Positions 15,346-61,329 of a stretch of 64,000 nt of DNA are shown one piece after another. The position numbers and the translations under genes are program-made. How positions within the stretch are numbered: position 1 is the first letter of the stretch; the number at the start of each line of letters is the position of its first letter. This DNA is from Euprymna scolopes. Lineage: Eukaryota. The notes under the pieces were generated by a model that made no database searches, was not told the origin of the DNA, and saw only the letters and a program-made list of their open reading frames with translations. The stretch lies in NCBI GenBank assembly GCA_053919585.1, contig CM132804.1, one strand, 5' to 3'.

Positions 15346-17274
15346 TGTTACCTTATTATAACTAAAATGTAGTTTTTTTATGATACTTGAATTCATGTAT
15401 TGAATACTGTAAAATTTTGTAAGTGAAAATGCAAAGTTAGACATAAGCTAAAGAGGTGGGTAATAAATTATAATCGAAATAATGCCTTTATTCCCGGATT
15501 TTGGCAGAAAATAATCAAATGCCCACTCATAAAATCCAATACAGATGTTAAACATCTGAAATTTAAACCGGCATATAATATCTATCTGATAGGGTGGAAT
15601 AGCCGTTTTAAAAATCTATCCAAACTAAAGTTCGGGAAAATTATTTATTTTTAATTCTACAAGCATCAGAAACATTCAAAATGTTTCGAAAAATCATCCG
15701 CCTTTTTTAACACGTTTTGCGTACAACCAGAAGCATAAACTAAATATAGTTCTCGTATTAACACTCTTTGCTACTTTATAATATAGCAATATGTATACAA
15801 ATGTACACTTATATTTAGAAACGAAAGTGTGTTACTGTTTTAATATCGATCAAAATTATGGAAAATAACATTTCCTCATGCGTGTTTCTTGAATAAAACA
15901 GGTAAATGATTCTATAAATGCACAATACGTTTGCTAAAATAGATAGTCATGTAAAGCGATTTAGGTCGATTACTTTATATAAACTGTTTGAATGCCTCAG
16001 GAAATCGGACAAATTTGAACTTTCCTTACACCAATTTAAAAGCAACTTTTCTCATTAAAAGCATACAATGAGGATGAAAGCTGAGGGGGAACAAAATCCC
16101 ATCAATGTCTTCATTTCATTATCACTTGAGCAAAGGTTTGCTCAACACCGGCTATGTCACCAAACAAAATTAATATAATGAGGTATAAAATCTATCAATT
16201 ATTTGACGAAATTGCATGCAAACAAACCAATCTCGATAAATAGGCCATTAAGTGAGCGCTAGGAAACGTATTAAAACTGAAATATATTACTTCGGTAAAT
16301 TGTGAAAACATGGGCTATACGTAACGCTACACCTCTAATATACGGCCTTAACAATCATTAAAAATAATGTCAACAGCAGTAAATAAAAAATCAAAATATT
16401 TTTTGTAATGTTCTGACGGTTTGTGTCGGATATATCATGTATCATTTCGTTGCTAAGCAACTGATGGAACATTCGCATTATTCTTTTATTATCTTGTTCT
16501 CATGTTTTTGTTTTTTTCTCACCTCTTATTTATCCAGGTAATTTAATTAAGAAAGTCCATTGACACAACATAATTCGCTTACGGCAAAAAAACGCTATTG
16601 TAATTTCAATAAACCAACGCCTCCTAAGAATGTAAATTATCTTTTGTTTACATTTGAATCAAGTTGGCACTTTCAATAATAAAGCCAATTGTTACATTTT
16701 ATTGTAGGCTAATCGGCATCAGTTCTCCAATAGCTTAATGTTTTTTTATGCACTATACAGTGGGGGGTGGTGTTCGCATACTTTCAATTAAATCAACTAT
16801 TCTCAAGTTAAAATTTTCAGTTTTATAATTATTATTAATAGTAGTTCAGCTAGTTGTATTCAATATTACAATATCTATCTTTCTTGTAGTTTTAAGAGAT
16901 AATTTCTCTNNNNNNNNNNNNNNNNNNNNNNNNNNNNNNNNNNNNNNNNNNNNNNNNNNNNNNNNNNNNNNNNNNNNNNNNNNNNNNNNNNNNNNNNNNN
17001 NNNNNNNNNNNNNNNNNNNNNNNNNNNNNNNNNNNNNNNNNNNNNNNNNNNNNNNNNNNNNNNNNNNNNNNNNNNNNNNNACAATTAAAAAATTGTCTGG
17101 GAACTAAACTAAGTCTGCAAGTTTTCTGCCTGTTCTCGATTTTCGGTCACTGCTGTATTTCACATTTAAAGTCCGTAATTTCGTCTATATTTCAATGGAA
17201 CTAAAGTAGCAATCGAACTTTCCGACATTGAATATTGCAGAATCATGAAACACTAGACTGCATGAAGTCGATGT

Positions 17275-18588
17275 AAAATATGCTAGCAGAAGATTGAGAA
17301 TTGAATGTGATAGGTAGGAAACATATACTAGTTGAAGACCCGAGGTTGCCCAGGATAAACTGAGAAATGTGTCTAAGATTTAATGAGATAGGAAGTGAAT
17401 ATATACAAGCAGAGGATCTGATTTTGTCTGGGATTAAATGAGATAGGTGCGAAATATGTTATAGCAGAGGGCCCAGCGTCGCACAGGATTGAATAAAATA
17501 GTAAGGGAATATATACTAGCAGTCGGCCCGACGTTGCCCAGGATGAAATGAGATATGTGGGAAATATATAGATGCAGAAGGCCTGTTTCCACCGGGATTG
17601 GGTGAGATTGTTAGGGAATATATATTAGCAGACGGCACGGCGTCGCCCAAAATTGAATGAGATAGGTAGACAACATACACTAGCAAAAGACCCGGTGTAA
17701 CACGGGATTGAATGAGATAGGAGGGAAATATATACATGCAGATAGTCCAGCATCGCCAGGGATTGAATAAGATAGTTGAAAATATATACTAGAAGATGAC
17801 CAAGCGTCGCCCGGGATTGAATGAGATTAGTGGAAAAATATACTAGCAGAAGACGCCGCATCGCCCAGGATTTAATGTAGATAGAAATATATAATAGAAG
17901 AGGATATCGCATTACCTGAGATTAAATGAGAAAATTAGCCGTGATTAAATAGGTAGGAAGTATATACTAGTATAAGGCACGGCTTGTTTGAGATTAAATG
18001 AGCTAGGAAGGAAATACATACCAACAGATGACCCGGCGTCTTCCGGGATTTAATGAGATATGTGGGAAATATATGCTAGCTCGAGGCCAGCGTTTTCAGG
18101 AATTGAATGACATTAGTGGAAAAAATATAGTAGCAGTAGACCAGGCATCACCTTGGATTGAATAAGAAAGGTAAACGTATATATTAGCAGAAGACACGGT
18201 GTTGCCTAAGATTAAATAGATGGGTAGCTGGGATTGAATAAGATAGCTATAAAATATCTACTAGTAGTAGATTCGACGTTGTCTGGGATAACATGAGATT
18301 GGTAGAATATATACTAACAGAAGGCACGGCGTATCCCGGGATTGAATGAGATAGGTAAGGAAAATATAAGCAGAAAGTCTGGCGTTGCTTATGATTGAAC
18401 GAGACACGTAAGAAATATACAGTACCTTATGGCCCGGCATCGCCCAGATTGTGTGAGATGGGTGGAAAAATATGCTAGCAGGAGACCAGCATCCCCCATA
18501 ATCGAATGAGAACAATGGAAATATGTACTAACAGATGCACGGCGCCACATGGGATTAAATGAGATAGGTAGGTGGATTGCGATAGGTA

Positions 18589-18590
<2 letters not shown>
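17275..18590 (-). repeat. Tandem array of ~23 diverged ~55-bp units, each a Helitron-type 3' terminus
   Basis: Plus-strand consensus TACTAGCAGAAGACCCGGCGTCGCCCGGGATTGAATGAGATAGGTAGGAAATATA, with a period of 54-55 bp (e.g. 17625, 17680, 17735, 17789, 17843). The reverse complement is a CCCGGGCGACGCCGGG hairpin, a short spacer and CTAG. Confidence 0.9.
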
Positions 18591-18640
<50 letters not shown>

Positions 18641-18644
<4 letters not shown>

Positions 18645-21626
18645 TTTCTCTTTTTATTAAATTTTCACTCCAAATAAGGCGCATTGCCACTGTGGTGTAG
18701 GGGGCTACTATCAGGGGCAGCAACTACTGAGCCACTATGTTGGGATTTAGGCAGCAAGATGTCAGTTCAGGTTACACTTGAACTTCTGCATGTCAGTACA
18801 GTTGTGGCAGCAGGAAACTGGAATGGCATTCCAGAGTCAAGCGCTTCTGGGGAAGAAACTACCAGAGTAGAAATATCTTCTACATCTATGGATCTCTACT
18901 GTGTGGGGGTGGGATTTAGCTGCCTGTCGGGTTTGTTGAGGATGTCTACGTCGTGGGGGCACAAGTGTCTGCAGTTCGCCTGAGCATTCACCATTAAAAT
19001 ACTTGTAGAACAGGCAGAGGGGTGCAACGTTTCGTCGATTGGACAGAGGCTGGAGCTTAGATACCAGTTCAGGGCCTATCAGATTGCCCACTCTCTTTTG
19101 AACCTTGTCTAGGAGCGAGAGACTAGCAGCAGATGCGCCAGCCAAAATGTGACAGTAATACTCCATACATGGGAGAATGGTCGTCTTATAGAGGTACAGG
19201 ATACTTTCAGGTGTCAGTAGTTTTCTAGAACGGTAGAAAGAGCCTACCTTCTTCGCAGCGGCTCTGGCAATGTTTTTAATATAATTGTTTCAACTTATGT
19301 TTTCTGTGAACGTTAGGTCAAGCAGTTTGAAAGATGTACTCTCAGAGAGGGAGTCACTGGCCATTGCTATTTGTGGCAGAAAAGGATTCTTGTAATTATT
19401 GAAGAACACTAGTGTAGTTTTGGCAGCATTGAATGTGACCATCAATTTTTGCCCCCATTCCACTACAGATTGGCTGTCATCCTCTAGTGTTTTTGCCATT
19501 TCTTTAGTTATGTGTTCATTTGTTTTCCTCTCATGCCTATTATAGAGTGTGGTGTCGTCAGCATATATATCCATCTCAGAGACAGTTTTGTCGGGGAGGT
19601 CATTAATAAATATTAGGAACAATAGAAGCCCAAGGATAGACCCCTGAGGCACTCGCGCATTTATATCACACTGTTTGGATATACGACCGTCGAGGACAAC
19701 CTGGATTTTACTTTTATCTAAGAAGGATTTAATTATGTTAAGTATTCTACCAGTTATACCGTATGATCTGATTTTCCTGAGGAATTCCTCATCCCATACC
19801 TGTCAAAACCCTTAGATATATATAGAGCTATCGCTCTGCCTTCTCCCGCTTTGTCCAGTGAATGGTATATACGTTCAGAGATTACAGTGAGGATGTCTGC
19901 TGTGGAACGGGCTTGTCTAAATCCAGATTTTTGGTCGGTCAGAAGTATAGCATCTGTAATGTGACGGACTAAAGTATGGTTAATTATGGTCTCAAATATT
20001 TTGGCGAAAAGTGGGAGAAGGCTAATGGGGCGATAATTTAATGGGTCAGTTCTTTCGCCAGAATTCTTGAATACTGGTACCACAGAAGCAGTTTTCCAAC
20101 AGCCAGGAAAGCATGATTCATGTTGGAGAGTTTGGAGAGAACTGGAGCTACTTCGGCGGATCACTTTTTTAATAGCATATCTGGGATGAGATCAGGTCCT
20201 CATGCTTTTGAAGTGTCAAGGTATTTTATGATAGCATGTACCCGAGCAGGGGCGATTTTTAGATCGTCTAGCGTGGCGTCTGTCCGCAAAGGAAAGTCAG
20301 GCATAGGGTGGTTGGAAGTGTCCAGTGTGGAGTTTGAGGCAAACCGACTGGCAAGCATATTAGCCTTGTCGGTTGCTGAGCAAACAACGTCGTGATTGAT
20401 GGTTAGTGGAGGAATTGTTGATTGCCCATTATTTACTACACTGTTGTAGATTTTCCAGAAGTCACGAGTTCCTAATTTTTGTACTTCGATGCGTTTTTAG
20501 TTCAGTAAATTCTCTCTTAGCTGTCGCTAGTTCTTTCTTTACGTTACTTCTAGCTTCTATATACTTATGTCTGTTTGAACTGGACTTATGTCGGTTAAAT
20601 CTGCGGTATGCATGCTGCCTTTGAGCAATGGCAGTTGCGCAAGTAGAAGTAAACCATTGGGGAGAGTGGGGATTGCTATAAATTTCAGCATGGGAACATA
20701 TGCTTCAATTTCTGTTTTTAACCATTCAGTGGTCCCATTTTCGCACTGTTCAGCAGGAAGAGAAAACATATTTCCCCATGGGACATATCTGATAATATCT
20801 CTGATGGCTTCCCAGTCAGCCTTTTTATAATATCTCGTTGTTTTGAGCACTGGCTCTTCAGTTGTGGGTCTAGAGTGTAGGACGATTTCGACCATTATCA
20901 CTGCATGAACAGCGTCCCCGAGTGGGCTGTCAGCATTTGTTATGCCATCCTCGGGAACTTTAGTCAGAAACAGATCTAGAAGTCATGCGTGTCAGTTGGA
21001 AACGTAACCATTTGTGATAGGGAGTGAGATATAGCGAAGCTATGTGTTGTGCTGTCCGCTGTATCTGTGTGAGTAGAGAATCCAAGCCAGTTTTTGTGGT
21101 GAACATAAAAGTCCGCAAATACATGTACTTGGGCGCTAGTGTCGAGGGAGAGTGCTGTGGCTATGCTGTCAGAGACTTTGTTTATTATGGTGCAGTCCTG
21201 GGTCGAGGGAGAGCGGTAGAGAAAATAAAAGTAGATTATGTTATGTTGTATGTTAAGTCTAAAGCACATTAAGACTCGGTCGTCCGTTTCTAGGGTTGTT
21301 TCTTTAGTTAGGGAGGGGGTGTAACGAATGTAGACTCCAATTCCGTGCATATGTCTGTCAGAGTCCTTACGGCAGAGTGGGAGATAGTCAGGCATGTTAA
21401 AGTAGTTAGAGGGGATTGGGGAGTGTAGGTTAGTCTCGCTTAGTGCTAAGATATCCGGGGTATTTGTTAGGAGAAATGCTTCAACATGAGCTAAATTAGT
21501 TCTAAGCCCACGGATGTTAGTGACTGCAAGCATCAAGGGAAGAGGCAAGTTGATGTGTTTGTCCCTAGGCCTGGTTTAAGCTTATTATTTTATTGTACTG
21601 TCATCATGTTTTTAAAGAGTTTCAGT
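18641..21626 (-). mobile_element. CR1/L2-group LINE, complete but decayed ORF2 (APE endonuclease + RT)
   Basis: APE domain 'LAVTNIRGLRTN...DILALSETNL' (20976-21548). RT blocks 'WKTASVVPVFK..DPLNYRPISLL', 'GFRQARST', 'PQGSILG..LFLIFINDLP' and 'YADD'. C-terminal 'MEYYCHILAGA'. Several frameshifts. The A-rich tail at ~18641 abuts (TA)n. Confidence 0.95.
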
Positions 21627-21945
21627 TAGGTATATATATTAGCAGAGTACCTGGTGATGCTCAGGATTAAATAAGATAGGTGGGAAATATATACTAGCAG
21701 AAGACCCGGCTTCGCTTGGGATTGAATGATATAGGAAAAAAAGATACACTAGCAGAATGCCAGGCTTCGCCAGAGATTGAATGAAATAGGTAGGAAATAT
21801 ACACTACCAGAAGTACCGGCGTCGTCCGAGATATAGTGAGATAGGTAGGAAATATATACAAACATAAGGCCTGGCGTTGCTCGGTATTTCAGGAGATAAG
21901 AATGAAAATACATACTAGCAGAAGACTTGATGTTGTCCGGGATTA
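21627..21945 (-). repeat. Continuation of the 55-bp Helitron-3'-end array (~6 units)
   Basis: Same consensus as 17275-18590, with units near 21640, 21694, 21749, 21803, 21858 and 21914. Confidence 0.88.
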
Positions 21946-23397
21946 TATGACACTTGTGAAATATAAAGTCAGTCCGGGAAGAAAATTAACTTATTTCATG
22001 TATATTTGTTATAGTTGTTTGTGTGTGAGAGGGGAATATGTAGTCAGTTTTGGGAAAAGTGCTGAAACAGTTAACGATATAAACATGTGTTTATTATATG
22101 TATAGTTGTAACAGTGAAGGAATATAAAGTCAGTTCGGGAAAGTGCTGAAACAGTTTACGATCAAAAAATAACTTTTATTCATATATATTATTGGCGTTC
22201 GGTGAAGTTAATTCAGGTAAGATTCTGTAGGGGATGATTGATATTTTATGAATGTTTAATGACTTCGTCCGGGAATGACGTCACAGTTGTAGTGGTGGAA
22301 AAATGCATGATTATGTTGTTTTTAAACGTGCTCTCGTGTTCTCTACGGCTTACCAAATCTTTTCTATATTAGTCAGCGTTGGAGGCAGTAATGTCCTTTT
22401 GGGGATCACAAAACCATCTCCTTCAATGTCATATTCCAAAAAATATAGAATATCTGTTGATTCATGCTCCGAAAATCAAGCCATTTCTCTTACTATCATA
22501 TGGTCAGTGGTGGGGTGGGGGGAAGAACTACATAAATATTGAAATTCCTGGTAAAGTAAATGTTGCTTAATACAATACGTGCTAATACATTTATGTAAGT
22601 ATATGGAAAACCTGTTGAGTTATTTTCAGGAAATGATGCGATTTTACTAAAAATAATAGTGTTGGTAGTCGGGAGCGAAAGAAGATAGTAATGTGGGATT
22701 TCATACTGAATCAAATGTTGCCTAATGACGAAGCTTCTCAAAATATTGTGTACTTCTTTGTAACACCTGCTAAGTAATCTTCCGAAAATGATGTATTTTC
22801 CCACAGGAAAATGATGTTGACAGTGAGGAAAAAATATGAAACACAGTAATGTAGAATTGTATAATGAAGCAAGGGTTGTCTAATAACTAACCGTGAAAAT
22901 GTATTTATGTATTAATTTTAAAATACTGCTGAGATATCCTCCAGAAAATGACATAATGTTTCATAAATTTATAGTGACGATAGTGGGAGATGAAAGAAAA
23001 CCAATAATGTTGAAATTTATAGTGAAACAACGGATGGCTGTTCATAAACCAATAGAACGTATTCATGTATTAACCTACAAATCTGTCTTTTACAATGACT
23101 TCATTTTATTTTCTTTAAATTATGGTTGCCTTCGTGGGAAGAGAAATTATTTCACATATGTTCTATATTACCTGTCGGGAGTAGGTTAAATTGTTTATTT
23201 AAATTACCCGTCCGAGAGTAGGTAAAATTATTTGAAACATGTGGTGTACGTTACCTGTCCTCGCGAAGTAAACTTATTTCATATACATGATGTAAATAAC
23301 TTATCGTAGGGAAGGTACAGTTATTTCATACATATGTTATATCCGTATCAGAGTGGATAAAATATTTTTTAGCTCGAAATAGCAACTGACATATAGA
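21915..23397 (-). mobile_element. Probable non-autonomous Helitron body feeding into the 55-bp array
   Basis: On the minus strand it begins A|TCTATATG at 23397 and ends in hairpin + CTAG at ~21915. It has internal short direct repeats (taaagtcagt.cgggaa; ttacctgtc..gagtagg). Confidence 0.45.
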
Positions 23398-24305
23398 TAT
23401 TAAAATTCCTCTACACGAATAATAACAGATATTCCCAAAATCAACTTCAGTTTTCTCATTGTTTTATACAGTCCTAAGCAACGCCGGATAACCCTGCTTC
23501 TCAATAATAAATAGATCAGTATATACGTAAGTCTAGATTTAAGGCAATATAATTTTAATATCGCTACATGATCGCTTCTTATTAGTTATATAATATTAAC
23601 CCACCGAATTAAACGACGAAAATGTCCTCACATGTTCACAGGCAACTCTCCAAATGAAAACTAAAAAACTAATTATACAAACATCGCTGTTTTAAAAGTA
23701 TTATGTTTCCTATGAAAACAAGAAACGGAAAATAGAGGAAAAGAAACGTTAGAGAAAAAGAGCGAAATAATAGGTCAGCAAATATACCTACTCAGAAACA
23801 GACTTTACTTCTGATGCTGCGCTAAGAGAAATAAGTAAAATAATCTGGAATGATATTTTAACATGTGGAGATGTGTTGAATATTTTGTTATATTTTATTT
23901 TATTTAGCTTCAGTTTTTGGAAGTTTTACTTTTCATTTCGTTAAAAATGAAACACTTGATCACTAACAACACTATATGCAGATATGTATGTAAAATTTAA
24001 ATAATATAAAATGGCGTCAAACAAATATGTATAATAACTTTAATTAAAAACTGTAAATAAAGGTTATAATAAATAATACTCAAAAGAAATATGTAACAAA
24101 AATTGTATGTTAAAGTGATTGAGGTTTAATACTAATTATGGTAAAAAATAAAAAAAATGATAAAAAAGAATAATAATGCAATAATAAAAGTTTTAATCGC
24201 TACATTATCTAAAAAAATAAAATAATTATCACTGTTCAAGTAGATGCAAATATTTGTATGTATCTATATATGTAGGAATCAGTAATAAAAGAAAATGAAG
24301 GTATA

Positions 24306-24380
<75 letters not shown>

Positions 24381-24908
24381 TTGTTTAAAATGTATATACA
24401 TCAATTGGAATATTTAGATAAAGNNNNNNNNNNNNNNNNNNNNNNNNNNNNNNNNNNNNNNNNNNNNNNNNNNNNNNNNNNNNNNNNNNNNNNNNNNNNN
24501 NNNNNNNNNNNNNNNNNNNNNNNNNNNNNNNNNNNNNNNNNNNNNNNNNNNNNNNNNNNNNNNNAACACATGTTAAAAACCACTCTGAAAAAGAGAAAAA
24601 ACATATTTAATCTGCGGAGGATACACTTAATAAGTGGATCGTCCTTAATCCGCGGAGTTTCTCATCAGAGGATAGGAATTACCAAATGCGGGATCGGATT
24701 TCGGAGACAAAAGTATTTGATGAAACTGCAATTTGATAACAAAAAGTGATGGTAAAATCCAAAAATGTAAATCCAGAAANNNNNNNNNNNNNNNNNNNNN
24801 NNNNNNNNNNNNNNNNNNNNNNNNNNNNNNNNNNNNNNNNNNNNNNNNNNNNNNNNNNNNNNNNNNNNNNNNNNNNNNNNNNNNNNNNNNNNNNNNNNNN
24901 NNNNNNNN

Positions 24909-27900
24909 TCGACGATGACCAAGGTATCAATCAGTTCGGCGTCGGGGGTTGGTGGGTTTTGAGATGGCTGATGAGGCCAATCAATGCTCGGCAGACTCTT
25001 CCACACTCTGGACACGTGAAGGCGGTATCGGCAGGCTGTGAACCGGCAGCTCTCTCCTTCCGCCTGTTGCGCTTTTGCTGGTCGTGTGTCATGCGTTGAC
25101 CCTCTGCCCTGTCGGCTCCTAGGCTGATGGCGCAACGCCAGGCAGAATATTCCGCAGCGCGACTCTCCCAAGACTGGGAGCTGATGTCAAAGTCTTTGAG
25201 GGAGGTTCTCAGGCAGTCTTTATATCGTCTGTTTTGGCCCCCTACAGTCCGCTTTCCCTGGCTGAGTTCCCCATAGAAAAGTTATTTGGGGATTCGGCTG
25301 TCATGCATGCGATAGACATGGCCTGCCCACCGGAGCTAGGTTTTGCGAGTTATGCTTGTAATGGTATGGAGCCCTGCGCGCTTCAGGACTTCTGTGTCAG
25401 GAATTCTGTCTTGCCAGTGGATGTTGAGAAGATTACGGAGGCATCTGAGGTGGAAGCCATTCAGCAGTTTTTCATGTGTTTTTTTATATGGCGTCCAAGT
25501 TTCACTGGCGTAGACTAGGATTTCAGGACGACTGCTCGGTATACTTTCAGTTTGGTTGCGAGTTTAATGCCTCTCCTCTTCCACACATTGTCTAAAAGTC
25601 TTCCAAATGCACTGCTCGCTGTGGAGGTCCTATGGTTAAACTCAATGTCAATGTTGGCTGTGCGGGAGAGGGTGAATTGCTCCACAGCATGGATCTTCTG
25701 CCCTTTGACAGTGATGCCGGGTTCATGGCATGCATCTCCTGGGGCGGGTTGGTACATAACTTATGTCTTATTTGTACTGATGGTGAGACCAAAGTAGTCA
25801 CAACTGGTGGAGAATCCGTCCATTTGACGTTGCATCTCTATCTCATTTGGGACATTAAGGGCGCAGTCATCGGCAAAGAGAAGGTCTTTGATGATGGTTT
25901 CCCTTACTCTCGTGACTGCCTGCATTCGCCTGATGTTAAACAATTTCCCGTCTCATCTGTACTTGATGGCAATGCCATAGTGACTGTCTTTGAAAGCGTT
26001 CTGGAGCATGGCAGAGAAAACCATGCTGAAGAGCGTCGGGGCTAAGATATAGCTCTGCTTGACTCCGTTGGTCACAAGGAGGGGTTCTGAGGGGTCGTTG
26101 TCATACAGGACACGGGCCGTTATGGCGATGAACCTGTTTGGGCAACCAACTTTTTCCATGATCCGCCAGAGGCCATTTCGGCAAACAGTGTCGAGGGCCT
26201 TGGTCAGGTCGACGAACGTGGTGTAGAGGCCCCGGTGCTGCTCGACACACTTCTCCTGCAGTTGGCGTGCAGCAAAGATCATATCAGTCGCCCCGCTGCC
26301 CGCTCGAAAGCCACACTGACTCTGGTTAAGACGACAATCTTCAAGGTGCACCAGCAGGCGGTTGAGAAGGACGCGGGTCAGGATTTTCCCGGCGATGATT
26401 GTCACATGAATGACGATTTCCTTTGCATTTGTAAATGTGAACAATAGTAGCATCACGAACATCTTGGGGAAGTTCTTCACTCTCCCACACAGATTGGAAG
26501 AGTTCTGCCAGTCTTACAAGCAGTGTAGGTCCACCAGATTTGTATACTTCTGCTAGAATTGAGTCAGGAGCAGGGGCCTTCCCAGAGGAAAGTTGCTTGA
26601 TGGGTTTCATTACTTCCTCTGACGAGGGTGGGATGTTCAGCTCCTCGTTGATAGGCTCCTGGCGTAGTCGGTCGATGGATTCATCGTTGATGGAAGATGG
26701 CCGGTTTAGCATGCAGTTAAAGTGCTCTGCCCATCTATCAAAGATCTGCTTTTTGTCATTCAATAGAGTTGTTCCATCGGAGCTAAGCAGGGAGGAGGAG
26801 CTAGAGGACTGGGGACCGTGGACAACTCTCAGCGCATCGTAAAACTTCCTCAAATCATAACTATCGGCATGCTCCCGGATCTCATCTGTTTTGGCGCTGA
26901 GCCACGCATTCTGCATGGAGCAGAGTCTGGCCTGAACCTTGCTGCGGATGTTGATGAAGGCAGCTTTCTTTGTGAAGCACTTCGGGTCACTCTGATGTGC
27001 ACGGAGAAGTTGGTGTTTCTCCTACAGGAAGGGTTGAATCTCAGAGTCATTTTCATCAAAGCAGTCCAGGTGAATCTTTTTCTTGGGTCCAATGATTTCG
27101 AGAGCGATGGAGTATGTGAAGTCTCTGAGGCGTGCCCACTTATCTTCAATAGTGCCCGAGATGGTAAGGGGGACAGATAGCTTGTCGTTGATTGCTTCCT
27201 GTAGCTCATGGATGACATCTGGAATTTTCAGTTTCTCCACGTCAAGGCGATTTGTGACTTTCTGGCCCTGAGGCCGCCTCTTGGTTTGGATGTAGAGGCA
27301 TATTTTGGATATCATCAGGCGGTGGTCTGTCCAACAGTCGGCACCACACACAACCTTGGTCAAACTTATATTTCTGCTGTTCCTTGCCCTGATGATGACG
27401 TAGTCGATCGGATGCCAGTGGTGGGAGCATGGGTGCATCTAAGACGTCTTGCTACGGGTGGGTAGGTGGAACATGGTGTTTGTGATGGAAAGGTCGTGTG
27501 CCGCCCGTTGCTATTGTACTTGCGCACTCCATGGTGGCCAAGGACCCGGTCCCAAGTGGAATGGTCCGTGCCAACGCGGGCATTGAAGTCGCCGAGGACG
27601 ATAAGCTTCTCTCTCTGCGGAGCAGCGGAGATGAGGCTTTCCAGATCTTCATAGAACTGGTCCTTGGTATCTTTGGGGTTAGTCATGGTTGGTGCGTAGG
27701 CGCTGATCAGTGTGGCGGTTCTTCCTTTGCTGAGCGGGAGTTGCATCTTCATCAGCCGGTCATTAATGCCGTCCGGGATACAGAACAACTTTCTTACGTG
27801 CTCAGTCTTGATGGCGAAGCCTACGTCAGCCTCTCTGCGCTCCTCGCTGCTGCGTCCACTCCAGAAAAAGGTGTAGCCGCCATCTGACTCTGTGAGTTGA

Positions 27901-28970
27901 CCCTTGTCGAGGCGAGTCTCACTTAGGGCTGCGATGTCTACCTTATAGCGGGCAAGCTCCCTTGCTACAAGAGCAGTTCTTCCCTCGGGTCGGTCAGCTC
28001 TGGTGTTGTCGAGCAAAGTACGAACATTCCAGGATGCTAAGGTAAGCACCAACCCTTTATTTCTCATGTCTCGACCGCTGTGAGAGAAACCCCGCCAGCC
28101 GCGGTATGCTGGCCAGGGGTGATGGTGAAGCAGCTATGTTTAGGGTTCCTTTTATCGCCCGTCCTCATGCTATGGAGGTGAGCAGAGTAATCCTGAAAAG
28201 GACTGTTCGCTCGGCCAGCCAGTTGCCTGCACCCCCTCACTGCTTCGGTCGAGTCGAGTACGACCAGTTTCTGGGCCGCCTGTGTGCAGGTTTGCAGCTA
28301 CAGCTCCCAGTGATTTCCACACCTGTTGCTTTGCCGCTCGCCCATCGCCACAGGGTTTGGTGTTGACGCAATGTTTGACACACTGACTTGCGCTTAATTT
28401 GGATTATAGCGAAGGGGACTTGTGCTGCATCAACCTCACGCTCTCGTCCTGACCCGCCCAATTCCAACGGCAAGACATAGTCGAGACGGCTGGGGACGGA
28501 CAAGGTGCAGGAGCTGCCGAAGGGAGGCAAGTATGTCGTCCAACCGCCTAAGGGGGCCCACTCCGTCGTTTTTGTACGGGTTGCTCCCCTAGCCTTATCC
28601 ATTTCCATGGCTCTCACAAGGCAGTGAGGTCATTTGATCCATGGCTGGGATAGGGATTGGTAATGTGTCAGGGCATGTCCACACGTCGGTGGGCCGTAGC
28701 ACAGTCCCTCTGGGACTCCCTACTGTTCCGAGATCCTCTACTGATTCAGCCTGGAGTCGCATGACAACCAGTTACCGTGTGTGACCAGGAGGAGGCACAG
28801 CAGAGGTCTTGATGATGGACAGGCTGTGTACTGGCAGGAGAAGACTTACGCACTCGGCTTCTCGTTACGTGCAAGGCTAGCCAGTGGTGGTTGCTGAGAG
28901 CGAGATGGTGAGTAAGCCAAGACGCTAGCTTATAGCTAACACACTTGCGCGTCACATCACCCTGTGTGCA
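24909..28970 (-). mobile_element. Near full-length decayed RTE-clade (BovB-like) LINE
   Basis: APE domain 'LTLASWNVRTLLDN..RPEGRTALVARELARYKVDIAALSETRL' (27366-28067). RT blocks 'SQCGFRAGSG', 'FVDLTKALDTV', 'NGVKQ..ILAPTLF' and 'LLFADD'. C-terminal C2H2 finger 'FTCPECGRVCRALIGLISHLKTH' (~25020-24950). The 5' UTR is ~900 bp. The element is clearly more GC-rich than its flanks and both ends run into gaps. Confidence 0.96.
28735..28944 (-). ncRNA. HDV-like (nested double pseudoknot) self-cleaving ribozyme candidate in the RTE 5' UTR
   Basis: On the minus strand: P1 5' GUGUGU (28944), a long J1/2, P2 5' CCUCUGCUG, P3 GCC, L3 UCCUCCU, P3' GGU, P1' CACACAC, P1.1 GG, P4 CUGG..GUC/GAC.CCAG, J4/2 GCUGAA, P2' CAGUAGAGG. 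Confidence 0.75.
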
Positions 28971-29555: not shown

Positions 29556-30436
29556 TCTATATCTATCTATGAAAGTAAACGTGTCTTTGTACATGCCTAT
29601 GTGTCGGTCTGTGTGTCTGTGTACATTTCCTTACGACATAACTCTGTCAATTTTAAGTCTACAGACTCGAAATTTGATATACACGGTATGAAAATTGGGA
29701 ACATTTTTGTAATCCATTCTCGGCAAGAAATTTTTCTGTTAAGGAGTCAAAGTTACACGATTTGACCTTTGAAAACTCTACCCAATTCCTCCGCCAATTT
29801 TGGCTCTGACCACTTTAAATTTTAGATATAGGTGTCATTGTCACGGATCCAACTTAATAACTTAATTTGAGCTCAAACCAATAACTCTTAAGTACATAAT
29901 AAGGGTCAAAGTACATAAAAAATGACCTTTGCGGGATCTACCAAATTACTCAGACAATTCCTGGTTTAAACATGTGAAATTCTACATAAAGAGTATTCAG
30001 AGATAGGGCAAGCTTCTAGTCGGTTTGGGTCGAAAAGCTTTAGTTACAAATATATAAGTGTACGTGTGTACGTGTGTTTGCATGTCTGCCTAAAACTTCG
30101 GACAGAGGCGACAGATTTTGCCAAGATCAGTATCAAGTTCGTCTTTCAGACGACAAATATCGAAAACTTGGCTAAAACATTAATATCTTCACCTTTAACT
30201 GGGCACTTTTCTACAGGGTGGGCTCGCTTTTTTCGGCGATATTTTTGAAAGTCATCCTCTCCTTTCGATTGTCTAGCCTTAATTAACACCTACGACACTT
30301 CCGGTTTTGCGGTGGCCGTGTTTTTGCCCGTTCTTTTCCTACTTTGCAGTACGGTTTCGATCCTGCATTCCTACTACCATTATTTTTCTGAACACACACC
30401 TACAAACACCCGGGCAACGCCGCGCTGAAATGCTAG
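29556..30436 (+). mobile_element. Complete non-autonomous Helitron (~880 bp)
   Basis: The 5' end is A|TCTATATCTATC followed by a GT-rich tract. The 3' end is CCCGGGCAACGCCGCG-CTGAAATG-CTAG|T. It is inserted between A and T with no TSD. Internal sequence is shared with the copies at 40.0-40.4 kb and 61.3-63.6 kb. Confidence 0.85.
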
Positions 30437-57231: not shown

Positions 57232-60200
57232 CCCCTTTTGGCCTTTAGTGGGGTAATTCTTCCTTGTCCTACCACGTGCCCTAGGTATTTTACCTCGGCC
57301 TTACAAAATTTTCTTTTCGCTATATTTATGGTTAGCGTGGATGATCGCAGCCTTTGGAATACTTTCCTTATTGTTTCGACATGCTCTGCCTACGTGTCTT
57401 CATAGATCACTATGTCGTCTATGTAGGCATCTACATTTGCTATCCCAGCGAGACACGCATTCATTAATCTTACAAACGTGGCCTGCGAGTTCGTCATGCC
57501 AAAGGGTATCACTCGGTATTGATATATTTCCTCAGGGGTAACAAATGCCGATATTTGTTTGGCTCGTTCTATTAGGGGTACCGCCCAATACCCCTTCAAG
57601 CGATCGCATTTGGTGATATATTTTGCTCGCCCTACTATATCTATACAGTCGCCTATTCTGGGAAAAGGATATGAGTCGGCCTTGTTGAGCGCGTTTACTT
57701 TTCGATAGTAAGTGTAAAATCGCACTCTCACATCGGGCTTGTCTACTAGCACGCACTGTGATGGCCACTAACTTCGTACTGGGGTCTATCATCCCATGAT
57801 CTTACATATAGTCTATCTCTTCCTTTAGAACTGCTAGTTTTCTCGGACTTAGGCGATATGGGTGTTGTCTAATCAGTTTATCCTCTTTCAGTTCTACATC
57901 GTGCACTGCTGCATTGGTGCACCTAGGCGCATCTGAGAATAAGTCTCTGTACTCTGAGAGTATTGTTTTTAAACTTTCCTTCGAAGGTGGGTGGGCAAAT
58001 TTGGCATCTAAATTTCCCAAGACCGCTGAGTTGTTTAACTTCCTAGGTGGGTCCTTGGCCACACCGGCTTCCCTCTCAGCGCTGGTCAGTTCCAATTCTC
58101 CCTGGATACGTGGAGCTATCAGCACCGCTTTCTCTTCCGCCCTTCTAAAATATTTTCGCATCATATTAACATGAGATACTTGCGTCTTCTTTCTACGTTC
58201 TGGGGTATCTATTAGGTAGTAAAGGGAGCTAATCTTTTTGGCTACTGCATAGGGTCCCTGGTATCTGGCCTTAAATGCTGGCCGTTTAGGATAACAGTAG
58301 TAGAACTTCCTCCCCTTCTTTGAATTCTCTTTTCATCGTTTTCTTGTCGTATTCGGCTTTCATGGTTTTCTGACTATTCTCTAGGTCATCTCTGGCTAAC
58401 TCTCGCACTTCTGACAGTTTTTGCATTGAAGCCACATATTCCGACATATTGTTCGGCATGGGCTCATCGTTTACCCATCGTTCTTTTATTAGTTTTAATA
58501 ACCAAAAACTAACTCGAATGGGATGAACCCTAGTGATTCATGTACTGCTTCACGCGCCGCAAACAACACGAAGGGAATACCTCTGTCCCACTCGTCATCA
58601 TGTTGCACACAATTTGTTTTTAGCATAGTTTTGAGTGTGGCGTAAAAGCGTTCCAGCGCTCCCTGGGACTGCGGCTGATATGCGCTTGATCTGACGTGCG
58701 TGACTCCTAATTGTGTCGCCGTCTGCCTGAAGATCTTTGATATGAAATTAGATCCTTGGTCGGTCTGCTTGTTTTTGGTAATCCCACCTTTGTAAAGAAA
58801 GTTATCAGGGTGTCTACTATCCTTTTTCGCCGATATAGTCCGCAATGTGATCGCTTCAGGGGATCTGGTGGACGCACACATTATAGTCATTATATATTTA
58901 TGGCCGGATTTAGTTTTAGGCAACGGCCCAACACAGTCGAAAATCACCTGACCGAAAGGTTCCTCCACTGCTGGTATTGGTTTGGTGTGGCGCCAGAGGA
59001 ATCTTCTGGCTGGGGTTTCCTGTCACTTGGCATGTCTTGCATGTTCGACAGAACATTTTCACGTTCCCTATGATTCATGGCCAATCGAAGTGTCTCGTGA
59101 GCTGTTCGTGCATCTTAGTGACACCCAGCTTACCCGCCAGTGGTATCTCGTGTGCAAATTTTTGGCACTCCCTCCCTGTACGCTTTCGGCACCATCAATT
59201 GCTCGCGCACGCTCCGGTCTATCCCCTCCGTCACACTGGGCGGATTCCACCTTCTCATTAATACGCCGGTATTGAGGAAGTATTTTCCTGCCCTGCCATT
59301 GGATTCTTCATTTCTGATCCGCCCAAACAAGGGTTTCAAATCGACATCGTTTCGTTGTTCCCTAATTAGTTCTTTTCGCGGTATTAAAAGATTAGATCGC
59401 AACCCTATCTCTTCTTTTGCTTGGCCCTTGCTTTCTGGTGACCTAGTAGTAGACTTCTCCCTCGTCTTTACAATTGCCGATGCCTTATCTTCTGATGCCT
59501 TGAGTTCCCCAATGGATTAAGATTTCATTTGGCTCGAAGGTTTGATTCGGCTTTTGGCAATGTTGTTATCTACTATCATCGCCACGCCGGCCATAGGTAA
59601 GCTACTAATGACTCCCACGATGATCTCGCCTGATATCCAATCTGATTCTTGGTAAATTTTAACTAGAGGAATTTTCATAGGCTTATCTTCTATGCCTCTA
59701 ATAGTGACTGCCGTATTGAAGGTTGTTTTTATTCCCTTGGGCACGTGGTTCCTTAGCACTAAGGATTGGGATGTACCTGTGTCTCTTAGGATATTGATGG
59801 GCCTTCTCTGGCTCTTCGGGAAATGTATCCTCTCGACGTGAAGTGTGTATACGCCGCTTCTACATTTGCGTGTACCATCAACTATTGTTTAGTTGGGGGA
59901 TTTCGAATTTGTTCCAGGCCTCGCTTCGCCCAACAGTTTGCAGCTATGTTACCCAGCTTCTTACAGTTGAAGCACGCTTACCCTTAACCCCCTGATTTTT
60001 TGTTGGTATGCTCTTGGGATTAGTTAATACGCCTTAAAATCGCCGCCTTGGCGGTTTCATAATCTACGCAGCCCTCTGCTGGGAGCGCAACGTACGACCT
60101 TTGTGCTTTCCCATACAGCGTTTTTTGTAGTAGCATAGTCCAGCATTCCTTCGGCCAGCCCATATTAAGAGCTGTTCTTTCAAAGTGGGCGAAGTAATCG

Positions 60201-60410
60201 TCCACTTCAGTTTCGGCGAATTTAGGGACCAGCCTTACGTGTTTCTTCACGTCGAAGCTATTCAGTCTATTCTCGTCTGTTTGGTGTCTTATGGTTAGAT
60301 AACTCATCCGCGTGTCTTGTTCAATTCTGGCTTTCTCAATCTCCATCCTAGCAAATATTTTTGCCTTCTCTAATTCTACTTCGGCTGGAATCATAGTTTC
60401 CATTTCTGGT
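57232..60410 (-). mobile_element. Decayed Ty3/Gypsy retrotransposon interior with Gmr1-type order gag-PR-INT-RT; no LTRs seen
   Basis: Gag 'FDVKKHVRLVPKF.E.EVDDYFAHFERTA' (60020-60410), zinc knuckle remnant 'CFNCKKLGNIAANC', protease 'INILRDTGTSQSL' (~59800), integrase 'EPFGQVIFDCVGPLP..TDQGSNF..SAYQPQSQGALERF' (58495-58968), then RT 'RQHPYRLSP..YRKVNA..LKGYWAVP..PFG..AYIDD..YLGHVVG' (57900-57232). RNase H is truncated away. Confidence 0.92.
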
Positions 60411-61329
60411 GGCAATTCCTCTAGCGTTTCCTGCTCAAACATCCCAAGCGTGAATTTAAATTCCAAAAAAAAATAATAAATAATAATAACAAATAAATAA
60501 ACGCACTAGCGTTCGAGACGTACACACCTCCCTCTCCCTCCCTCCATCCCTCTGAAAATGCAATGCGCGAGAGGGCTCACTGTCAGCGAAGCTGATAAAA
60601 AGGAAAAGTGAAAGAAAAAGTGAAATCGACGCGGACGAATAAAGAAAGCAGATGTTGAACTGAGCGTTTTGTCAACGGTGAAAAACGATAGCGTTCGTAT
60701 AAAAAAATTAAGAGGCAAGAAAAAAGATAGAAAAGAAAAAAACGAGACTGTAGAGAGCAGTGAACGGTGTCAAATTGGCCGGTTGTTTGTTTACATTTGA
60801 GCGAATAATTAATAAAAAAACACGAAAACTCGCTATGAGCCTGTGGTGCTCAGGAATGCCCAACGCGCTGCGTAAACATATTTCCCTGAAATAAACAGGA
60901 GTTGAATTCTTTCGGCCGAGAATGGACATCATGGAAAGTTCACGGCGAAGACATTAAAGATGAATAAGAAGAGGGTTGCAACAAACAAAAATATCGTCAT
61001 GTTGACGGGCGTCCCCATCCAAGAAGAAACCAAACAGGAAAAATCTCGCGAATGATGAACTTTGCGGAGACATTATGAAACATGAAAGTCCAATTGGATA
61101 AAGTTAAGTGACTATTATGATTTCCCCATCCCGATATCCCCGCTCCGTTTCCTTGGCCAAACTGTCATACCATAATGGAAATAGTATATACATTATTTCT
61201 TTTATGATGTTTCTTTTTTATCATCCGACCTCACCCCAATCTATTGCGGTGTGATATTAAATTTAAGGATGTTGAATAAAATTCGTGGTTTTAGATTCTA
61301 GCGTTGTCATTTTGCTTTGAATTTGAATC

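What the first reader, a model, noticed from the sequence alone, without database searches (positions are those of the whole stretch)
17275..21945. Satellite made entirely of tandem Helitron 3' termination signals
Seen: ~29 units of ~55 bp whose minus strand reads ...CCCGGGCGACGCCGGG-TCTTCTG-CTAG. This is essentially the same hairpin + CTAG that ends the ordinary Helitrons at 30436, 40378 and 61772. The array extends from the 3' end of a putative Helitron body (23397-21915). Known: Helitrons move by rolling-circle replication, the 3' hairpin/CTRR is the terminator, and Helitron-derived satellites usually come from internal repeats. Inference: repeated terminator bypass, terminal duplication or rolling-circle copying of a tiny terminal circle built an array of stop signals. 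Such an array could offer alternative 3' ends or bind RepHel.
Basis: partly seen in the sequence, partly recalled or inferred. Interest (0 to 1): 0.7.

Follow-up and report, generated by a model that had tools for sequence, protein, structure and literature searches.

The report
Backwards Helitron stop-signal minisatellite
A 54-base repeat that resembles the stop signal of Helitron jumping genes sits backwards inside a widespread Helitron family, so it is likely silent cargo carried around the genome rather than a row of working stop signals.

Summary
The repeat is real: about 29 units of 54-55 bp, half of each unit a Helitron-type hairpin plus CTAG. The adjoining body is a dispersed non-autonomous Helitron whose true 3' end (hairpin, 8 nt, CTAG|T in 33 of 44 copies) lies at window 23500 on the + strand; its A|TC 5' end lies beyond the arrays. 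The units are internal and antisense (34 of 44 host ends have an antisense array, none a sense-only one), one block in a chain of minisatellites. They do not act as ends: 1 of 33 array breaks falls at CTAG, no solo unit was found, and the hairpin is the least conserved part, with no compensatory change or polarity. The unit also differs from working ends (7-nt spacer and CGAC loop, against mostly 8-9 nt and CAAC). Likely origin: an old Helitron end captured backwards, duplicated by slippage and spread as cargo. This is a variant of known Helitron-borne satellites; I found no paper with a terminator-derived monomer. No related earlier scan note was returned.

The parts
17257..18590 (-). Left block of the 54-bp minisatellite, about 23 units (hairpin, 7 nt, CTAG, then 27 nt of TA-rich and pyrimidine-rich sequence); fades out near 17257 into single-copy flank
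   Evidence: flank 17080-17275 has one genome hit, itself
18591..18639 (.). (TA)n run at the LINE 3' junction, in the TATATA part of a unit
18640..21631 (-). Frameshifted, 5'-truncated non-LTR retrotransposon (LINE) inserted into the array
   Evidence: ORF pieces; Pfam Exo_endo_phos E 5.9e-5 and RVT_1 E 1.5e-12; other copies run on beyond 21631 (loose ends)
21631..21945 (-). Right block of the minisatellite, 6 units; adjoins the body as in other copies
21946..23472 (+). Non-coding body of the host Helitron, itself made of about 85-, 157- and 47-bp repeat blocks; 73-78% identical to the best other copies
23473..23500 (+). True 3' end of the host Helitron: 16-nt hairpin (23473-23488), 8-nt spacer, terminal tetramer decayed to CTTC in this copy (CTAG in most others), followed by T

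Best explanation
The array is an internal 54-bp minisatellite of a dispersed non-autonomous Helitron family, lying antisense to that family's own ends; its unit likely arose from another Helitron 3' end captured backwards and then likely duplicated by slippage, and it is likely passive cargo that the transposase reads past. Shown: host ends, orientation, internal position, spread over many contigs, inheritance of unit order between copies, later LINE insertion, decay. Inferred: (a) a Helitron end once landed antisense at a TA-rich site inside an ancestral element; (b) the TATAT after its CTAG and a similar AT-rich word 25 nt before the hairpin allowed a 54-bp duplication, followed by expansion like that of the family's other repeat blocks; (c) the array persists because on the copied strand CTAG comes 27 nt after the hairpin rather than 8-9 nt, so it is not read as a stop. 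The window copy is a dead relic: its 5' part is missing and its terminal CTAG is mutated.
For: Host 3' end: 33 of 44 distinct body ends read CTAGT 8 nt after the hairpin, with unrelated flanks. Host 5' end: 17 of 27 far-end loci show the TATATAAAAGCG start, 9 as A|TC, and sharing stops there. Orientation: 34 of 44 host ends have an antisense array within 3.5 kb, 0 a sense-only array, 1 both, 9 none; 20 of 27 far-end loci have antisense units, one has a single sense unit. Internal: 77 of 110 array ends run on into shared sequence, mostly 158-, 78-, 39-, 83- or 85-bp blocks. Not an end: 1 of 33 remaining breaks at CTAG, about 1.2 expected. Neutral decay: across 711 units from 49 loci the hairpin is 75% conserved, CpG sites 67%, the other half of the unit 86%; compensatory changes are near or below expectation; no polarity in the window (rho -0.05). 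Cargo: unit position is inherited between 26 copies (0 of 200 permutations reach the observed identity); within-array identity 74.5% is close to between-array 71.8%. Working ends differ: 37,952 exact ends have the CAAC loop against 251 matches with CGAC; 95 of the first 100 CAAC ends have 8-10 nt spacers; of 30 CGAC loci, all 10 with 7 nt are array units and all 20 with 8-9 nt are solo.
Against: No donor element was found: the non-hairpin half of the unit is no closer to the sequence before genuine ends than shuffles are (223-268 of 300, five ends), nor is the unit closer to the 85-bp block (107 of 500 shuffles), and no leftover inner 5' end was seen. So steps (a) and (b) are inference. CTAG is somewhat better kept (89%; intact in 464 of 711 units) than other C/G positions (73-81%), although the profile used to find units favours that region. 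Seven-nt spacers do occur at genuine-looking ends (5 of 100 listed; L190 is one), so the spacer alone does not disable the signal. All genome searches score only the best candidates, so solo units could be missed. The window copy itself lacks the 5' part, so its orientation rests on its relatives.
Confidence: 0.74

Rival explanations
1. One reading: the array is the 3' terminus of a minus-strand Helitron, built by repeated terminator bypass or terminal duplication, and offers alternative 3' ends.
For: Body and array are adjacent in many copies; the unit has the hairpin-CTAG-T order on that strand; the window copy has single-copy DNA beyond the array.
Against: The proposed 5' end at 23397 is internal; the real termini are on the other strand; 77 of 110 array ends continue into shared sequence and 1 of 33 others breaks at CTAG; no solo unit in 23 inspected loci.
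Confidence: 0.05
2. The unit is a fossil 54-nt mini-Helitron: a tiny circle joining CTAG to a TATAT start was copied by rolling-circle replication into a concatemer, which then inserted antisense into the host family.
For: Head-to-tail tandems of whole 410-420 bp Helitrons in this genome also read CTAG|TATAT at the joint (L108, L119). Helraiser makes head-to-tail circles (PMC4778049, passages).
Against: The unit lacks the TC...AAAAG start of this genome's Helitrons; genuine ends are often followed by TATA anyway (10 of 30); neighbouring 39-, 47-, 78-, 85- and 158-bp blocks without any terminator expanded in the same way; no free unit copies seen.
Confidence: 0.12
3. The antisense array is used: because the hairpin and CTAG are both near-palindromic, the transposase pauses or cuts at array CTAGs on the host strand, or binds the hairpins, which generates shortened copies or favours the family.
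For: On the host strand 4 of 30 non-family breaks fall exactly after CTAG-like tetramers followed by T, against 0.56 expected. The block was retained, often twice, in most subfamilies.
Against: Two of those 4 are TG...CA insertions with the tetramer duplicated on both sides (L052, L082) and a third probably is (L042), leaving 1-2 of 30. The hairpin decays at CpG rate with no compensation.
Confidence: 0.09

Closest known systems
Non-autonomous canonical Helitrons (HLE1), as defined in PMC11417382 (passages read)
   Same: Host family starts TC, ends hairpin + CTAG, A before and T after, no coding capacity seen.
   Different: Interior is a chain of many minisatellite blocks up to about 11 kb (L043+L133), one of them made from an antisense terminator.
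Cg_HINE elements of Crassostrea gigas with central satellite-like arrays (PMC7492417, passages; review PMC12628747, passages)
   Same: Short tandem arrays dispersed genome-wide as cargo between fixed flanks, fixed orientation of repeats to flanks, more than one array type per element.
   Different: Cg_HINE are Helentrons with subterminal inverted repeats; monomers are 140-180 bp and are not described as copies of a terminus. Here the host has TC/CTAG ends and the monomer is half terminator.
Maize Helitrons with multiple (pseudo) 3' termini (PMC3288121, passages)
   Same: Internal terminator look-alikes, explained by nested Helitron insertion.
   Different: There 99 of 100 internal ends have lost CTAG and number a few per element; here CTAG is intact in 464 of 711 units, the ends are antisense and are tandemly amplified from 3 to about 100 times.
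Rolling-circle tandem arrays of truncated Helitrons (Xiong et al. 2016, seen only as summarised in PMC12628747)
   Same: Tandem arrays of Helitron terminal sequence.
   Different: Those have many 5' ends and one 3' end; this array has 3'-end motifs only and sits inside another element.
Xenopus Heli2Xen 166-bp minisatellites (PMC12001565, passages)
   Same: Minisatellites making up most of non-autonomous insertions.
   Different: Helitron2 class; monomer not reported as terminator-derived in the passages seen.

Membership tests
Non-autonomous HLE1 Helitron (host family) | 5' end begins TC | tested here: met
   17 of 27 far-end loci show the start motif, 9 as A|TC, sharing stops there. Missing from the window copy.
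Non-autonomous HLE1 Helitron (host family) | 3' hairpin followed by CTRR | tested here: met
   CTAGT 8 nt after the hairpin in 33 of 44 ends; decayed to CTTC in the window.
Non-autonomous HLE1 Helitron (host family) | Insertion between A and T without target duplication | tested here: inconclusive
   A precedes TC and T follows CTAG, but no empty site was compared.
Non-autonomous HLE1 Helitron (host family) | No RepHel coding; dispersed copies | tested here: met
   Only short frames in the body, no Pfam hit for its longest window ORF; copies on dozens of contigs.
Non-autonomous HLE1 Helitron (host family) | Autonomous partner with the same ends | not tested
   A broken RepHel lies at window 48126-51050 but was not linked to this family.
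Functional Helitron 3' terminus (the 54-bp unit) | Occurs as an element end, CTAG|T with varied flanks | tested here: not met
   0 solo units in 23 inspected loci; 1 of 33 breaks at CTAG.
Functional Helitron 3' terminus (the 54-bp unit) | Same strand as the element's 5' TC | tested here: not met
   Antisense in 34 of 44 and 20 of 27 loci; sense-only arrays 0.
Functional Helitron 3' terminus (the 54-bp unit) | Stops RepHel in a transposition assay | not testable with these tools
   Needs an assay of the Helraiser type.
Helentron-associated HINE | Subterminal inverted repeats, T-T insertion, no TC/CTAG ends | tested here: not met
   Ends are TC and CTAG; inverted repeats were not searched for.
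Classical satellite DNA | Long arrays homogenised within the array | tested here: not met
   Within-array identity 74.5% against 71.8% between arrays; 65% in the window; arrays mostly 0.2-3 kb. Larger free arrays elsewhere were not searched for.
Rolling-circle tandem of truncated Helitrons | Repeated 5' ends with one 3' end | tested here: not met
   The unit has no TC...AAAAG start.

The most novel reading that the evidence does not exclude
A Helitron family amplified dozens of backwards terminators as a RepHel-binding or pausing platform, or as the fossil of a 54-nt rolling circle, the smallest Helitron replicon; the array then supplies occasional alternative 3' ends on the host strand.
Probability: 0.12. 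Interest if true: 0.65.

Novelty: new variant of a known kind. Interest (0 to 1): 0.3.

Why it matters
It is a natural control for how Helitrons stop: a family has carried dozens of near-perfect terminators through many rounds of transposition without ending at them, which points to strand, loop and spacer as what makes a stop signal work. It also warns that hairpin+CTAG detectors will call false Helitron ends, on the wrong strand, in these arrays. As genome biology it is an old, decayed repeat with no sign of selection.

Tried and rejected
5' end at 23397: rejected, homology continues about 100 nt to a 3' end on the other strand. Selection on the hairpin, compensatory pairs and polarity: none (of 31 arrays 2 had p<0.05, in opposite directions). 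Seven-nt-spacer matches as a possible donor family: all 10 were array units. Second array near the far end as a true terminus: it continues into shared sequence. Kinship of the unit with the 85-bp block or with the sequence before genuine ends: not above shuffles. Host-strand termination at array CTAGs: the excess (4 of 30) is mostly TG...CA insertions. Folding single window units or single genuine ends: z between -0.95 and +0.89, uninformative. Expression: no RNA holder listed; two polyA runs read to about 12% gave 1 and 0 reads on the left block, which is no test for small RNAs. Joints in run contigs came from other family copies or were unclear, so they say nothing on circles. Earlier scan notes: two returned, both unrelated. 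Paper searches gave no report of a satellite whose monomer is a Helitron 3' end; subscription journals are not in the library, and Repbase/Dfam could not be searched. No supplements were read.

Full report
Observation. The hairpin motif is far above chance (10 matches against 0.01) and resembles the three ordinary Helitron ends of the window at 30409, 40351 and 61745. Between the two blocks lie a (TA)n run and about 3 kb of frameshifted LINE on the minus strand, inserted in the TATATA part of a unit and 5'-truncated. Contigs of two runs from two studies cover 26 and 23 of 30 bins of the left block, so the array is not an assembly artefact. The window units are old: 65% pairwise identity, CTAG kept in 13 of 28.

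A dispersed family. The right block matches arrays at about 38 separate places among the 40 candidates scored, of 1937, and the body 21946-23420 matches dispersed copies at 72-79% (4081 candidates, 40 scored). I fetched 38 plus 20 stretches. Body and array are adjacent in the same order in most of them.

Orientation. Homology among copies does not stop at 23397; it runs about 100 nt further and ends at a hairpin, an 8-nt spacer and CTAG followed by T on the opposite strand, after which flanks differ. In 44 distinct ends, 33 read CTAGT; 34 have an antisense array within 3.5 kb, none a sense-only array, one both, nine none. In the window this end is 23473-23500 on the + strand, with CTAG decayed to CTTC. 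Beyond the arrays the family continues through 158-, 78-, 73-, 39-, 83- or 85-bp tandem blocks, often a second 54-bp array, and a module with a U2 snRNA fragment. A search with that far part led to a sharp boundary at a Helitron start: 17 of 27 loci show the motif, 9 as A|TC and 4 directly after another Helitron's CTAG; 20 of the 27 carry units, all antisense to that start, and one has a single sense unit (three overlapping loci were dropped). The host is therefore a canonical non-autonomous Helitron read on the window's + strand, and the 54-bp block is internal and backwards. The window copy lacks everything 5' of the first array; its left flank has one genome hit.

Do the units act as ends? 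An exact hairpin-spacer-CTAG pattern from the array gave 20 matches; 7 lie in one known array and the other 13 loci are all inside arrays. With a free 7-9 nt spacer the CGAC-loop hairpin gave 251 matches; of the first 30, all 10 with 7 nt are array units and all 20 with 8-9 nt are solo ends. The CAAC-loop hairpin gave 37,952 matches; of the 100 listed, 5 have 7 nt, 73 have 8, 20 have 9 and 2 have 10 (my count), and the 30 inspected are solo. Of 110 distinct array ends on the unit strand, 77 continue into shared sequence; of the other 33, 1 breaks within 1 nt of CTAG and 11 in the following TATATATT, as expected for insertions at TA sites. On the host strand 4 of 30 breaks fall just after the CTAG position (0.56 expected), but two are TG...CA insertions with the tetramer duplicated and a third probably is.

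Is the signal maintained? Across 711 units from 49 loci, the hairpin is 75% conserved, its CpG positions 67%, the other half of the unit 86%, CTAG 89%. The profile favours the hairpin-CTAG region, so these figures lean towards conservation there. Compensatory changes are near or below expectation, and there is no consistent polarity. Within-array identity (74.5%) barely exceeds between-array identity (71.8%), while unit order is inherited among 26 copies (0 of 200 permutations). The array was thus copied as part of the element and has since decayed, mainly by CpG loss.

Mechanism. From the Helraiser work (PMC4778049, passages and section 12), one strand is peeled from the 5' end, the hairpin signals cutting at the following CTAG, and the loop sequence matters. 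On the strand this family copies, each unit presents the hairpin with loop GTCG and the next CTAG 27 nt later, so it would likely be read through (inference). The likeliest origin is a Helitron end landing antisense at a TA-rich site in an ancestral element, as proposed for internal ends in maize (PMC3288121, passages), then a 54-bp duplication between two AT-rich words and expansion like the family's other blocks. No donor was found and two similarity tests were negative, so this step is the weakest; a tiny rolling circle remains possible.

Comparison and novelty. Helitron-like elements carrying internal satellite blocks are known from oyster, Drosophila and Xenopus (PMC7492417, PMC12628747, PMC9659126, PMC12001565; passages only), and internal pseudo-termini from maize. 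What differs here is a monomer that is half terminator, antisense and amplified in tandem. Seven searches showed no such case, within a library that lacks most subscription journals.

Noticed in passing
L116:2077-2125, L100, L104, L127, L132, L051, L058 (host family, near its 5' end): The family carries a roughly 45-nt piece matching the 5' end of U2 snRNA, antisense to the host and often repeated (Rfam E 2.7e-5 to 8.4e-3, all below the gathering score; 7 of 10 loci scanned). A search for Helitron plus U2 capture gave 3 papers, none on this by title or abstract.
   Followed up: partly
L100 and L127, inside the U2-like piece: A roughly 210-bp sequence, tandem in L127, interrupts the U2-like piece at the same place in two copies; it may come from a U2-targeting retroelement (recalled, untested).
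   Followed up: no
L052:5337-6292, L082:482-1246, L042:5208-9535: Insertions with TG...CA ends sit exactly at the unit's CTAG, with the tetramer duplicated in two clear cases; possibly solo LTRs with a CTAG target preference.
   Followed up: partly
L102, L108, L119: Head-to-tail tandems of whole 410-420 bp Helitrons with CTAG|TATAT joints, 2-3 copies.
   Followed up: no
whole genome G000: One exact hairpin plus 6-10 nt plus CTAGT occurs 37,952 times across several spacer families; many such ends abut the TC start of another Helitron.
   Followed up: partly
window 48126-51050 (-): Broken autonomous Helitron remnant: Helitron_like_N E 5.8e-31 and PIF1 E 6.4e-17; not linked to the family studied.
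   Followed up: partly
window 57390-60505 (-) and 24900-28130 (-): Broken reading frames that look like an LTR retrotransposon gag/pol and like an RTE-type LINE, from my reading of the translations; not scanned.
   Followed up: no
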